From assembly GCF_009914755.1 (NCBI RefSeq), contig NC_060947.1: a stretch of 64,000 bases of DNA; one strand, written 5' to 3'. The position numbers and the translations under genes were made by a program. Shown here piece after piece: positions 39,345 to 47,111 of this stretch. The notes under the pieces were generated by a model. It had not been told where the DNA came from and searched no databases. It saw nothing but the letters and a program-made list of their open reading frames with translations. The stretch is from the human T2T-CHM13v2.0 reference genome, Homo sapiens. Position 1 is the stretch's first letter, and the number at the start of each line of letters is the position of its first letter.

Positions 39345-39356
39345 GGGTATGCACTC

Positions 39357-40936
39357 TTTTTTTTTTTTTTTTACAAGGATGTTCATTATTTATTGGGGAA
39401 ACAATTGGAAATGCCAGTAATAGTGCAAGTGCAGTGAGTTCTTACACCATGAGGCACTGTGTACTTTTAAGGTGTGAGTGTATGTCCTTTCTCTTTCTGT
39501 TTAGTCCAACCCCTTCAGACCTGAGAGCCTTCCCTTAACTGCCACACCCTAAGGGATTAAGGTCGAGGGATCATGTGTGTTCTAGGCTGCCCTACAGTTG
39601 TTAGTCAAACCAGATGATCAGATGGGGGCTAAGCAGTTTGAGACACAAAGAGTCACTTCCAGAAGAATGCCTGTGGGTGCTTTGCTTCACATGATCTATT
39701 GCTTATTCTCACATACAGAAATGCAAAGGGCCCATGGCCCCTAACTCGACTTCACAGAAGTGTCTGGTGCCAGAATGGCAAGGGGACCTATGATGCCCCC
39801 CCAACTTCCTTTTCCTTTTCAGCTCGTGATTACTCAGTTTGGGAACAGTGACAATAACTTTACAAATACATATACAGATGTATCTTCTGTCCACTCAGGT
39901 CAGTAATACTGGAATTTGGTTCCTTGAAGCTGAATGCCCACCAAAGTTTCTGAACAAAGTCCCTAATGGTGGGTCTTTCATGTGAAGAAGGAAAAGTTCC
40001 TCATTTAAAGTCTCCTCAAATTTTTGTGAATGGTTGGCACTCATCTCAGTAGATATCTAATGGCCTGCTCCCAGCATGGACCAGTTAGGGGTATCTTCTT
40101 CCACCAGTCCTATTCCTCTGTCTTTTCTGGGGTACCACTGTGATCCAATAAATGTTTAATTCTTCATGGTAGTTATTTCTTTTAACCTGACTTTCCTCAG
40201 ATTATTTATCCCTTCGACTGAGACAGTTTATAGTACATCTTCCTCTTTTTATTCTCTTTTGATTTATTGCTATAACCTTGTGTCCATTTGAAGAAGTGAG
40301 CCTGAACTCCAACAGGCAAGGGAGACATGAAGGAAAAATAGTGACAGAGACTGTGAGACCTGAAGGAAGGGGAGTCCTGTGAATGTACTTAGTGGAGAGA
40401 ACTGCAGGCTGAACCCCCAGTGCCTGTGGGAAGGAAGAGGAATGCAGATGGACTCAGACTGAGCAGTGACCATCCCAGCAGAGGATATAGGATCTGGCTG
40501 ACCCTCAGCCTTGATGAGCCCCTGCTTGGTATTTTTTTAATTCTCCCCAGACTGGTTATCCCCTTCTTTTGGTGAGTGCATCCCAATCCTTCTTTAGGGA
40601 AGTATTCCCTTTCCTGTTTGCATATAATCTTGGCAAGGCTAAACCAGTCAACTCCAGCCTACTCTGAACAAGGGCCTCACTCGTAATCCAAGCTTGGACA
40701 GTTGTACTCTATGACTTAAGACTTTAATTCTTGCTCCCAGTGATCCCTAGGGGGAAAACAATCTGAGTGTATTCACTCTGAAGTACCAAGAAATTGAGCA
40801 CTAATTCCCACTTTCTAGACTTCCAGTGCTACTGAGGCCTTTTTCCTTCCAAAAGAGTATTGCAAAGTTTTGTCTTCAATTCAGGCTATTTAAATTGATT
40901 ATTTGGTTCTTATTGTTTCTCTTTCATTTTCTAGAG
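39357..40936 (-). other. L1 3'-transduced segment (39373-40936) with its poly(A) tail (T16, 39357-39372) and AATAAA (39394-39389)
   Basis: Lies between the L1 tail and the true TSD; AATAAA is 16 nt upstream of the poly(A). Confidence 0.9.
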
Positions 40937-41071
40937 TTTTTTTTATTATTATAATTTAAGTTTTAGGGTACATGTGCACAATGTGCAGGTTAGTTACATA
41001 TGTATACATGTGCCATGCTGGTGTGCTGCACCCATTAACTCGTCATTTAGCATTAGGTATATCTCCCAATG

Positions 41072-44000
41072 CTATCCCTCCCCCCTCCCCTCACCCAACA
41101 ACAGTCCCCAGAGTGTGATGTTCCCCTTCCTGTGTCCATGTGTTCTCATTGTTAAATTCCCACCTATGAGTGAGAACATGCGGTGTTTGGTTTTTTGTCC
41201 TTGCGATAGTTTACTGAGAATGATGATTTCCAATTTCATCCATGTCCCTACAAAGGACATGAACTCATCATTTTTTATGGCTGCATAGTATTCCATGGTG
41301 TATATGTGCCACATTTTCTTAATCCAGTCCATCATTGTTGGACATTTGGGTTGATTCCAAGTCTTTGCTATTGTGAATAGTGCCACAATAAACATACGTG
41401 TGCATGTGTCTTTATAGCAGCATGATTTATAGTCCTTTGGGTATATACCCAGTAATGGGATGGCTGGGTCAAATGGTATTTCTAGGTCTAGATCCCTGAG
41501 CAATCGCCACACTGACTTCCACAATGGTTGAACTAGTTTACAGTCCCACCAACAGTGTAAAAGTGTTCCTATTTCTCTACATCCTCTCCAGCACCTGTTG
41601 TTTCCTGACTTTTTAATGATCGTCATTCTAGCTGGTGTGAGATGGTATCTCATTGTGGTTTTGATTTGCATTTCTCTGATGGCCAGTGATGATGAGCATT
41701 TTTTCATGTGTCTTTTGGCTGCATAAATGTCTTCTTTTGAGCAGTGTCTGTTCATATCCTTTGCCCACTTTTTGATGGGGTTGTTTGTTTTTTTCTTGTA
41801 AATTTGTTTGGGTTCATTGTAGATTCTGGATATTAGCCCTTTGTCAGATGAGTAGGTTGCAAAAATTTTCTCCCATTTTGTAAGTTGCCTGTTCACTCTG
41901 ATGGTAGTTTCTTTTGCTGTGCAGAAGCTCTTTAGTTTAATTAGATCCCATTTGTCAATTTTGGCTTTTGTTGCCATTGCTTTTGGTGTTTTAGACATGA
42001 AGTCCTTGCCCATGCCTATGTCCTGAATGGTAATTCCTAGGCTTTCTTCTAGGGTTTTAATGGTTTTAGGTCTAACATTTAACCCTTTAATCCATCTTGA
42101 ATTAATTTTTGTATAAGGTGTAAGGAAGGGATCCAGTTTCAGTTTTCTACATATGGCTAGCCAGTTTTCCCAGCACCATTTATTAAATAGGGAATCCTTT
42201 CCCCATTGCTTGTTTTTCTCAGGTTTGTCAAAGATCACATAGTTGTAGATATGCGGCATTATTTCTGAGTGCTCTGTTCTGTTCCATTGATCTATATCTC
42301 TGTTTTGGTACCAGTACCATGCTGTTTTGGTTACTGTAGCCTTGTAGTATAGTTTGAAGTCAGGTAGCGTGATGCCTCCAGCTTTGTTCTTTTGGCTTAG
42401 GATTGACTTGGCGATGTGGGCTCTTTTTTGGTTCCATATGAACTTTAAAGTAGTTTTTTCCAATTCTGTGAAGAAAGTCATTGGTAGCTTGATGGGGATG
42501 GCATTGAATCTATAAATTACCTTGGGCAGTATGGCCATTTTCACGATATTGATTCTTCTTACCCATGAGCATGGAATGTTCTTCCATTTGTTTGTATCCT
42601 CTTTTATTTCATTGAGCAGTGGTTTGTAGTTCTCCTTGAAGAGGTCCTTCACGTCCCTTGTAAGTTGGATTCCTAAGTATTTTATTCTCTTTGTAGCAAT
42701 TGTGAATGGGAGTTCACTCATGATTTGGCTCTCTGTTTGTCTGTTTTTGGTGTATAAGAATGCTTGTGATTTTTGTACATTGATTTTGTATCCTGAGACT
42801 TTGCTGAAGTTGCTTATCAGCTTAAGGAGATTTTGAGCTGAGATGATGGGGTTTTCTAGATATACAATCATATCATCTGCAAACAGGGACAATTTGACTT
42901 CCTCTTTTCCTAATTGAATACCCTTTATTTCCTTCTCCTGCCTAATTGGCCTGGCCAGAACTTCCAACACTAAGTTGAATAGGAGTGGTGCGAGAGGGCA
43001 TCCTTGTCTTGTGCCAGTTTTCAAAGGGAATGCTTCCAGTTTTTGCCCATTCAGTACGATATTGGTTGTGGGTTTGTCATAGATAGCTCTAATTATTTTG
43101 AGATACGTTCCATCAATACCTAATTTATTGAGAGTTTTTAGCATGAAGGTTGTTGAATTTTGTCAAAGGCCTTTTCTGCAACTATTGAGATAATTATGTG
43201 GTTTTTGTCTTTGGTTCTGTTTATATGCTGGATTACATTTATTGATTTGCGTATATTGAACCAGCCTTGCATCCCAGGGATGAAGCCCACTTGATCATGG
43301 TGGATGAGCTTTTTGATGTGCTGCTGGATTCGGTTTGCCAGTATTTTATTGAGGATTTTTGCATCAATGTTCATCAAGGATATTGGTCTAAAATTCTCTT
43401 TTTTGGTTGTGTCTCTGTCCAGCTTTGGTATCAGGATGATGCTGGCCTCATAAAATGAGTTAGGGAGGATTCCCTCTTTTTCTATTGATTGGAATAGTTT
43501 CAGAAGGAATGGTACCAGTTCCTCCTTGTACCTCTGGTAGAATTTGGCTGTGAATCCATCTGGTCCTGGACTCTTTTTGGTTGGTAAGCTATTGATTATT
43601 GCCACAATTTCAGATCCTGTTATTGGTCTATTCAGAGATTCAACTTCTTCCTGGTTTAGTCTTGGGAGGGTGTATGTGTCGAGGAATTTATCCATTTCTT
43701 CTAGATTTTCTAGTTTATTTGTGTAGAGGTGTTTGTAGCATTCTCTGATGGTAGTTTGTATTTCTGTGGGATCGGTGGTGATATCCCCTTTATCATTTTT
43801 TATTGCGTCTATTTGATTCTTCTCTCTTTTTTTCTTTATTAGTCTTGCTAGCGGTCTATCAATTTTGTTGATCCTTTCAAAAAACCAGCTCCTGGATTCA
43901 TTAATTTTTTGAAGGGTTTTTTGTGTCTCTATTTCCTTCAGTTCTGCTCTGATTTTAGTTATTTCTTGCCTTCTGGTAGCTTTTGAATGTGTTTGCTCTT

Positions 44001-46059: not shown

Positions 46060-46642
46060 CTTTGTGATTTTATCTACTTTTGGTCTTTGATGATGGTGAT
46101 GTACAGATGAGTTTTTGGTGTGGATGTCCTTTCTGTTTGTTAGTTTTCCTTCTAACAGACAGGACCCTCAGCTGCAGGTCTGTTGGAGTTTGCTAGAGGT
46201 CCACTCCAGACCCTGTTTCCCTGGGTATCAGCAGCGGTGTCTGCAGAACCGCGGATTTTTGTGATCCACGAATGCTGCTGTCTGATCATTCCTCTGGAAG
46301 TTTTGTCTCAGAGGAGTACCCGGCCGTGTGAGGTGTCAGTCTGCCCCTACTGGGGGGTGCCTCCCAGTTAGGCTGCTCGGGGGTCAGGGGTCAGGGACCC
46401 ACTTGAGGAGTCAGTCTGTCCATTCTCAGATCTCCAGCTGTGTGCTGGGAGAACCACTGCTCTCCTAAAAGCTGTCAGACAGGGACGTTTAAGTCTGCAG
46501 AGGTTACTGCTGTCTTTTTGTTTGTCTGTGCCCTGCCCCCAGAAGTGGAGCCTACAGAGGCACGCAGGCCTCCTTGAGCTTTGGTGGGCTTCACCCAGTT
46601 CGAGCTTCCCTGCTGCTTTGTTTACCTAAGCGAGCCTGGGCA

Positions 46643-46825
46643 ATGGCGGGCACCCCTCCCTCAGCCTCGCTGCCACCTTGCAGTTTGATCTCAGACTGCT
46701 GTGCTAGCAATCAGGGAGACTCCGTGGGCGTAGGACCCTCCGAGCCATGTGTGGGATATAATCTCCTGGTGCGCCCTTTCCTAAGCCCGCCGGAAAAGCG
46801 CAGTAGTCGGGTGGGAGTGCCCTAA
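46643..46825 (+). CDS. L1 antisense ORF0 homologue (60 aa, C-terminally shortened)
   Basis: MAGTPPSASLPPCSLISDCCASNQGDSVGVGPSEP matches primate L1 ORF0. Confidence 0.6.
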   Translation: MAGTPPSASLPPCSLISDCCASNQGDSVGVGPSEPCVGYNLLVRPFLSPPEKRSSRVGVP

Positions 46826-47111
46826 TTTTCCAGGTGCCGTCTGTCACCCCTTTCCTTGACCAGAAAAGGGAACTCCCTGATCCCTTGCATTTCCCGAGTG
46901 AGGCAATGCCTCCCCCTGCTTCGGCTGGCGCATGGTGCGCTGCACCCACTGTCCTGCGCCCACTGTCTGGCACTCCCTGGTGAGATAAACCTGGTACCTC
47001 AGATGGAAATGCAGAAATCACCCGTCTTCTGTGTCGCTCACTCTGGGAGCTGTAGACCGGAGCTGTTCCTATTCGGCCATCTTGGCTCCTCCCCTCGGGT
47101 ATGCACTCTTT

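What the first reader, a model, noticed from the sequence alone, without database searches (positions are those of the whole stretch)
39345..47111. Full-length L1PA3/4 with a 1.56-kb 3' transduction, shown by a displaced perfect TSD
The 15-mer gggtatgcactcttt next to the L1 5' end (47097-47111) is absent beside the L1's own short tail (40937). It reappears at 39345-39359, next to a second poly(A) (T16) that has AATAAA 16 nt upstream (39394-39389). The ERVL sequence interrupted at 39344 resumes at 47112. So 39373-40936 was copied from the source element's 3' flank in a roughly 7.7-kb RNA that was fully reverse transcribed. L1 3' transduction is an established mechanism; this specific event is not explained by plain repeat annotation and gives a barcode for the source L1.
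Basis: partly seen in the sequence, partly recalled or inferred. Interest (0 to 1): 0.8.

Follow-up and report, generated by a model that had tools for sequence, protein, structure and literature searches.

The report
Old L1 carrying copied chr10 flank
A full-length but now broken L1 retrotransposon on the human X chromosome dragged 1.56 kb of chromosome-10 DNA along when it inserted, a well-known process (3' transduction), so this is a clean but ordinary example.

Summary
The 15-mer occurs exactly twice in the window (39345-59, 47097-111). It brackets a 7,752-bp unit on the minus strand: a 6,160-bp L1 (40937-47096), 1,564 bp of non-L1 DNA (39373-40936) and a 13-nt poly(A) 16 nt after AATAAA.

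A paralogue of the flanks elsewhere on the X, 86-87% identical, is contiguous with one copy of the 15-mer. It serves as an empty-site proxy.

The 1.56 kb has one relative in the assembly, on contig C10 near 85.845 Mb at 96% identity. That homology starts at an L1-endonuclease-like site and ends at the cleavage site, and C10 continues there without poly(A).

No L1 sits at the C10 site in this assembly, so the source is a lost element. Two details remain unexplained:
- C10 now carries an extra 2.63 kb (an 817-bp direct repeat plus a spacer) that the X copy lacks.
- No separate source poly(A) tract can be distinguished at the internal junction.

Verdict: L1 3' transduction (about 0.88). RT template switching is the main rival (about 0.07). 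The mechanism is long established, so interest is low. The ERVL and L1PA3/4 labels could not be tested, and no primate orthologues were available.

The parts
47097..47111 (.). Target-site duplication, copy next to the L1 5' end
   Evidence: Exact 15-mer, flush with L1 base 47096.
46060..47096 (-). L1 5' UTR, 1,037 bp, complete to the usual start
   Evidence: The first bases read as an L1 start (recognised from recall). All 39 non-self scored genome hits cover the 997-bp query ungapped at 93-94% (40 of 6,782 candidates were scored).
45043..46059 (-). L1 ORF1, broken by two in-frame stops (45913-45915, 45766-45768)
   Evidence: Frame translation. Pfam Transposase_22 E 6.7e-61, Tnp_22_dsRBD and Tnp_22_trimer on the 218-aa open part.
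41072..44979 (-). L1 ORF2, split into 613-aa and 690-aa open pieces by one frame break near 43140
   Evidence: Pfam Exo_endo_phos E 1.4e-18 and RVT_1 E 1.1e-14 and 2.8e-22.
40937..40947 (-). L1's own AATAAA (40947-40942) plus 5 further A (40941-40937): the bypassed signal and the internal junction
   Evidence: BLAST homology to C10 already covers 40937-40941, because C10 has AAAAA at that point.
39373..40936 (-). Transduced segment, 1,564 bp, copied from C10 (G+C 43%)
   Evidence: 96% identity to C10:85845373-85846396 and 85848210-85849573, the only two places in the assembly besides itself. No Rfam family.
39389..39394 (-). AATAAA signal that was used, 16 nt before the tail
   Evidence: It is conserved at C10, where a T/G-rich stretch follows the cleavage point.
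39360..39372 (-). Terminal poly(A), 13 nt, absent from C10
39345..39359 (.). Target-site duplication, copy after the terminal poly(A)
   Evidence: Exact 15-mer. The paralogue C23:141087479-141087493 has one copy with 1 mismatch between contiguous flanks.

Best explanation
This is an L1 3' transduction.

Proposed sequence of events (inferred unless marked otherwise):
1. A full-length L1 once sat on chromosome 10, in plus orientation, directly upstream of C10:85845373. It is absent from this assembly.
2. It was transcribed through its own weak AATAAA. Transcription then passed five more AATAAA/ATTAAA hexamers present in today's sequence.
3. The transcript was cleaved and polyadenylated about 16 nt after an AATAAA 1.56 kb downstream.
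4. The roughly 7.7-kb RNA was fully reverse-transcribed by target-primed reverse transcription at a nick after ...CTCTTT on the window's plus strand. This gave one 15-bp target-site duplication around the whole composite.
5. The source L1 never became fixed, or was lost. The X copy became fixed and has since decayed.

Shown directly: the composite anatomy, the single TSD, the chr10 origin of the extra DNA, and the poly(A) added at a real signal.

Inferred: that an L1 stood at the chr10 site, and that one continuous RNA was the template.

Dating: the X and C10 copies differ by K2P 0.035 (about 1.8% per lineage). By recalled primate divergence figures this places the event after the Old World monkey split, roughly at the time of the early apes.
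For: - Single TSD around the composite: 15-mer only at the two ends; anatomy and lengths; 6160 + 1564 + 13 + 15 = 7752, the repeat spacing.
- L1 identity: (ORF1 and ORF2 domains).
- Chr10 origin. The 1,564 bp match only C10, at 96%, in L1-sense orientation.
- Homology boundaries. Homology begins at ...GAT|AAAAACTC..., whose bottom strand reads TTTTT/AT, close to the recalled L1 endonuclease consensus TTTT/AA. A source TSD would therefore start exactly where homology starts. Homology ends at the cleavage site. C10 continues there with a T/G-rich stretch where the X has poly(A).
- Empty-site proxy. The flanks are contiguous, with a single copy of the 15-mer, in the paralogue C23:141087223-141087649 (86-87% identity).
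- No 5' transduction. There is no homology between the C10 upstream flank and anything at the L1 5' end.
- Literature: read-through of the weak L1 signal to a downstream signal is the described mechanism (passages of 10.1101/2021.07.12.451456). Progenitors absent from the reference are documented (passages of PMC9311842).
Against: - No L1 is present at the C10 site in this assembly, so the source is hypothetical.
- After the L1's AATAAA there are only 5 more A. C10 already has AAAAA there, so no source poly(A) tract can be distinguished. A young, unfixed source would be expected to carry a longer tail.
- No sibling insertion shares the flank. The 204-bp proximal piece hits only the X and C10, 2 of 2 candidates. 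The full piece gives 3 of 3. There is therefore no independent proof of a source L1.
- C10 is not collinear with the X copy. It holds a second 817-bp repeat and a 1,813-bp spacer.
- The X target nick site (CTTT/CC) is a poor match to the recalled consensus.
Confidence: 0.88

Rival explanations
1. Chimeric retrocopy by RT template switching or RNA recombination. Reverse transcription started on the poly(A) of an independent chr10 transcript and copied 1.56 kb. At an A5 run it jumped to the 3' end of a full-length L1 RNA and copied that completely. No L1 ever stood on chr10.
For: - The C10 site is empty.
- The internal junction is an A-run shared by both partners, with no extra poly(A).
- There are no siblings.
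- Chimeric L1 insertions with TSDs, and template switching as one proposed route, are described (passages of 10.1101/2025.02.02.635956).
Against: - In the chimeras described in the passages seen, the other RNA is the 5' partner and the L1 is the 3' partner. Here the L1 would be the 5' partner.
- By recall, 3' transduction is far more frequent.
- The junction falls on a good endonuclease-type site, which a source L1 predicts directly.
- An unfixed source is the normal fate of an active L1 (inference).
Confidence: 0.07
2. Two separate events: a 5'-truncated retrocopy of a chr10 transcript inserted first, and an L1 later landed exactly at its 5' edge.
For: None specific. This order would give the same sequence of parts.
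Against: - The L1 has no TSD of its own. The sequence after its tail does not match the sequence before its 5' end.
- The single 15-mer brackets the whole composite.
- The second insertion would have to hit the exact boundary and leave no duplication.
Confidence: 0.01
3. DNA-level duplication of chr10 sequence to the X, or the 1.56 kb is native X sequence, with an unrelated L1 beside it.
For: The region is 96% identical to C10, as a segmental duplication could be.
Against: - The copy ends in untemplated poly(A) exactly 16 nt after AATAAA.
- It starts exactly at the L1 tail.
- The paralogue of the X flanks lacks both the L1 and the 1.56 kb.
Confidence: 0.01

Closest known systems
L1 3' transduction (read-through of the L1 poly(A) signal; Moran 1999, Goodier 2000, Pickeral 2000, Szak 2003; titles seen only in the reference list of PMC9311842, content recalled)
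   Same: - L1, then non-L1 flank, then a second poly(A) after a canonical signal.
- One TSD around everything.
- The flank maps to a single other locus that lacks the poly(A).
- The event is interchromosomal, as most are (PMC9311842 passage).
   Different: - The source L1 is absent from the assembly.
- The transduced piece (1,564 bp) is longer than the 7-997 nt range in the short-read population map (PMC9311842 abstract). By recall, kb-scale cases are known.
- The source locus has been rearranged since, or was already different.
Catalogue of transductions in T2T-CHM13 (Hoyt et al. preprint 10.1101/2021.07.12.451456, passages read)
   Same: It covers the same assembly. A TSD-based pipeline found 183 highest-confidence L1 3' events, and lower-confidence bins are listed in a supplementary table.
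   Different: I could not see the supplementary tables, because bioRxiv supplements are closed. Whether this event is listed is therefore unknown. The passage speaks of 'identified parents', which this event lacks, so it may sit in a lower-confidence bin or be missing.
Chimeric L1 insertions formed with other RNAs (U6/L1 and mRNA/L1; 10.1101/2025.02.02.635956, passages read)
   Same: Two RNA-derived parts within one TSD, with a poly(A) at the 3' end.
   Different: In those cases the L1 is the 3' partner and the foreign RNA is at the 5' side. Here the foreign part is 3' of a complete L1 and begins at an endonuclease-type site of its home locus.

Membership tests
L1 3' transduction | A bona fide L1 whose 3' end is followed by non-L1 sequence | tested here: met
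   Pfam finds L1 ORF1 and ORF2 domains. The L1 ends at 40937 and is followed by 1,564 bp that match no L1.
L1 3' transduction | A second poly(A) at the end of the extra sequence, preceded by a poly(A) signal | tested here: met
   A 13-nt tail at 39360-39372, with AATAAA 16 nt upstream.
L1 3' transduction | One target-site duplication flanks L1 + extra sequence + tail, and none flanks the L1 alone | tested here: met
   A single copy sits between contiguous flanks in the paralogue.
L1 3' transduction | The extra sequence has a parent locus elsewhere that runs on past the cleavage site without poly(A) | tested here: met
   C10:85845373-85849573 at 96% identity. C10 continues with a T/G-rich stretch.
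L1 3' transduction | A source L1 directly upstream of the parent sequence, in the same orientation | tested here: inconclusive
   No L1 is there in this one assembly. The site is a clean endonuclease-type empty site (TTTTT/AT on the bottom strand). Non-reference progenitors are known (PMC9311842). Other haplotypes and apes could not be searched.
L1 3' transduction | The orthologous target site is empty in species that diverged before the insertion | not testable with these tools
   No primate genomes are held. Only a paralogue proxy was available.
Template-switch chimeric retrocopy | The 3' partner is the end of an independent polyadenylated transcript with no L1 at its home locus | tested here: inconclusive
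   No L1 at the home locus fits this feature. Whether an independent transcript exists at C10 cannot be tested, because no annotation or expression data are available for that place.
L1PA3/L1PA4 subfamily | Diagnostic positions against subfamily consensus sequences | not testable with these tools
   No repeat library is available. Indirect evidence only: length 6,160 bp; the 5' UTR matches 39 of 39 scored relatives ungapped at 93-94%; the X-versus-C10 distance is 0.035. These fit a 'long 5' UTR' element of early-ape age, in line with passages of 10.1101/429613 on the 129-bp deletion within L1PA3.
ERVL (the target sequence) | Homology to ERVL pol or LTR | tested here: inconclusive
   No Pfam match for the flank ORF fragments, even with stops read as X. 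The flanks are an old dispersed repeat: 7 and 9 non-self genome matches at 66-89%. The integrase-like motif was seen by eye only.

The most novel reading that the evidence does not exclude
No L1 ever stood on chromosome 10. On this reading the insert is a chimeric retrocopy in which the L1 reverse transcriptase began on an unrelated chr10 transcript. It switched at an A5 run onto a complete L1 RNA, giving a full-length L1 as the 5' partner of a chimera. That arrangement is not among those described in the passages I read. The empty C10 site, the lack of a separate internal poly(A) and the lack of siblings do not exclude it.
Probability: 0.07. Interest if true: 0.45.

Novelty: new member of a known kind. 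Interest (0 to 1): 0.2.

Why it matters
The value is modest.

- It shows that 1.56 kb of apparently unique X-chromosome DNA is a retro-copied piece of chromosome 10. Repeat masking does not flag this.
- It ties a fixed X-linked L1 to a progenitor site on chr10 that no longer holds an L1.
- It preserves a snapshot of that chr10 locus from roughly the time of the early apes. The snapshot differs from today's locus by a 2.63-kb repeat-bounded segment, so the X copy can help date that rearrangement once ape chr10 sequences are compared.

It does not change what is known about L1 biology.

Tried and rejected
- Sibling insertions from the same source: none found. The full 1,564 bp gave 3 of 3 candidates (self plus two on C10). 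The proximal 204 bp at E up to 10 gave 2 of 2 (self and C10).
- Whether the single X copy of the 817-bp repeat is a chimera of the two C10 copies, as repeat-mediated collapse would predict. Informative sites were 19, 15 and 17, plus 1 site at which all three differ, over 810 columns. The best breakpoint fits 23 of 34 sites, permutation p = 0.15. This is not significant, so the question stays open.
- Whether the C10 repeat-spacer-repeat is an LTR element. By my reading the ends lack the usual LTR termini. The spacer is unique in the genome apart from a roughly 200-bp repeat (73 matches, 40 of 521 candidates scored, all non-self matches within query positions 650-882). Rejected.
- Pfam on flank ORF fragments, to test the 'ERVL' label: no match.
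- Rfam on 39000-41000: 0 matches.
- The older L1 on C10 (89% identity, from 85851895) as the source. Rejected, because it lies 2.3 kb downstream of the poly(A) site that was used.
- Classic papers could not be opened by id.
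Full report
**Observation**

There is no further match at up to 2 mismatches on either strand.

On the minus strand the sequence between the two copies reads as follows:
- An L1 that starts flush against the 47097 copy and is 6,160 bp long (40937-47096).
- Its AATAAA, followed by only five more A (40947-40937).
- 1,564 bp that are not L1 (39373-40936).
- An AATAAA at 39394-39389.
- Sixteen bases further on, a 13-nt poly(A) (39360-39372) that runs into the second copy of the 15-mer.

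The parts add up: 6160 + 1564 + 13 + 15 = 7752, the start-to-start spacing of the repeat.

An exact 15-mer pair within 8.4 kb is not in itself rare here. One search lists 9 direct-repeat families of 13 nt or more, and four are exact pairs. The weight lies in the two positions.

**Identity of the L1**

Pfam finds the three L1 ORF1 domains, and the endonuclease and reverse-transcriptase domains of ORF2, on the open pieces.

The element is dead. ORF1 has two in-frame stops, and ORF2 has one frame break near 43140.

Its 997-bp 5' UTR query matched 39 of 39 scored non-self relatives ungapped at 93-94% (40 of 6,782 candidates scored). This fits a 'long 5' UTR' lineage. The subfamily name could not be tested without a repeat library. 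Passages of 10.1101/429613 describe the 129-bp deletion that separates long from short L1PA3.

**The target site**

The left flank with the 15-mer (39085-39359) and the right flank with the 15-mer (47097-47262) were searched separately in the assembly. Both hit the same paralogue on the same chromosome. The left flank ends at C23:141087493 and the right flank starts at 141087479, a 15-base overlap.

The paralogue reads straight through with one copy of the 15-mer, carrying 1 mismatch. The whole 7.75 kb is therefore one insertion into an older dispersed repeat.

I could not confirm that this repeat is ERVL. Pfam found nothing, even with stops read as X.

**Origin of the extra 1.56 kb**

In the whole assembly it matches only contig C10, at 96% identity and in the L1-sense orientation, in two blocks:
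- 85845373-85846396 (window 40941 down to 39920).
- 85848210-85849573 (window 40732 down to 39372).

Homology begins at ...GAT|AAAAACTC.... The bottom strand there reads TTTTT/AT, close to the L1 endonuclease preference as I recall it. A source element's TSD would thus begin exactly where homology begins.

Homology ends at the cleavage point. Where the X has poly(A), C10 runs on with a T/G-rich stretch of the kind that follows poly(A) sites.

The direction of copying is clear, because C10 has unique DNA on both sides and no poly(A).

**What is missing or odd**

1. No L1 at the C10 site. This assembly has none there. The only L1 within the 20 kb examined is an older copy (89% identity) that starts 2.3 kb downstream of the poly(A) site. 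It cannot be the source.
2. No distinguishable source tail. The five A after the L1's AATAAA are matched by AAAAA already present at the empty C10 site, so no separate source poly(A) tract can be told apart.
3. No siblings. No other insertion in the assembly carries this flank, not even its proximal 204 bp.
4. C10 is not collinear with the X copy.
   - An 817-bp stretch is present twice on C10, the two copies 95.6% alike, around a 1,813-bp spacer.
   - The spacer is unique in the genome apart from a roughly 200-bp repeat.
   - The X copy has the 817 bp once.
   - Over 810 aligned columns the informative sites are 19 (X with copy 1), 15 (X with copy 2) and 17 (the two C10 copies together). This is a star tree.
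   - A test for a copy-1/copy-2 chimera gives p = 0.15.
   - Either the C10 rearrangement arose at about the time of the transduction or after it, or a 4.2-kb transduction collapsed between the repeats. Outgroup chr10 sequences would decide this.

**Mechanism**

The best reading is classical 3' transduction. A chr10 L1 was transcribed through its weak signal, and through five further hexamers present in today's sequence, to a strong site 1.56 kb downstream. The roughly 7.7-kb RNA was then fully copied into the X by target-primed reverse transcription.

The mechanism is standard (passages of 10.1101/2021.07.12.451456; PMC9311842). Progenitors absent from a reference are documented (PMC9311842). 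I infer that the source was polymorphic and was lost.

The X and C10 copies differ by K2P 0.035 over 1,564 sites: 33 transitions and 21 transversions, with 6 of 54 differences at CpG contexts. By recalled primate divergences this puts the event after the Old World monkey split, near the early apes. That agrees with an L1PA3/4-age element.

**Rivals**

RT template switching from a chr10 transcript onto an L1 RNA would give the same anatomy. It is not excluded by the empty site, the minimal internal A-run or the lack of siblings.

I put it near 0.07, for these reasons:
- It is much rarer (by recall).
- In the passages seen, the described chimeras have the L1 as the 3' partner.
- The junction sits on an endonuclease-type site.

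Nested independent insertions and DNA-level duplication are contradicted by the single TSD, by the untemplated poly(A) at a real signal, and by the paralogue.

**Novelty and limits**

This is one more instance of a well-known process. The same assembly has a published transduction catalogue: 183 highest-confidence L1 3' events, with lower-confidence bins in a supplement. I could not open its supplementary tables, so I cannot say whether this event is listed. I made no literature search for this specific locus.

Primate orthologues, other human haplotypes, gene and expression annotation for C10, and a repeat library were not available. The cross-species test, the search for the source L1 and the subfamily names therefore remain open.

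Noticed in passing
L004/L005 = G000:C10:85845582-85849025: The source locus carries an 817-bp direct repeat (copies 95.6% alike) around a 1,813-bp spacer that is essentially unique. The X retrocopy has the repeat once. The three copies are equidistant (19, 15 and 17 informative sites), so the order of events is unresolved.
   Followed up: partly
L005:397-2209 (C10:85846397-85848209), query positions about 650-882: The spacer contains a roughly 200-bp unit with many 72-86% matches elsewhere in the genome. Several lie in tandem clusters (for example C9:83431004-83432112, C24:585904-586589 and C23:134112284-134181511 at regular spacing). The family was not identified.
   Followed up: no
window 38765-39073 and 47263-47576: Two Alu-like insertions (recognised by eye, poly-T first, so minus orientation) lie in the same old repeat as the L1. 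Both are absent from the paralogue C23:141086960-141088138, which has an Alu-like copy of its own at 141086012-141086317.
   Followed up: partly
window 38494-38752 (+) and 48599-48760 (-): An inverted pair. Both stretches match the same part of the paralogue (141086960-141087225) in opposite orientations. Both give ORF fragments sharing an ...LMEFLIH... stretch that looks integrase-like by eye. Pfam finds nothing.
   Followed up: partly
L005 from about 5895 onward (C10:85851895-85856000+): An older L1 in plus orientation, 89% identical to the window's L1 over 4.1 kb. It begins 2.3 kb downstream of the poly(A) site that the transduction used.
   Followed up: no
window 47111/47112 (pre-insertion nick site): The inferred first-strand nick on the X is CTTT/CC. 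This is a weak match to the usual T-rich/A-rich endonuclease site (consensus recalled).
   Followed up: no
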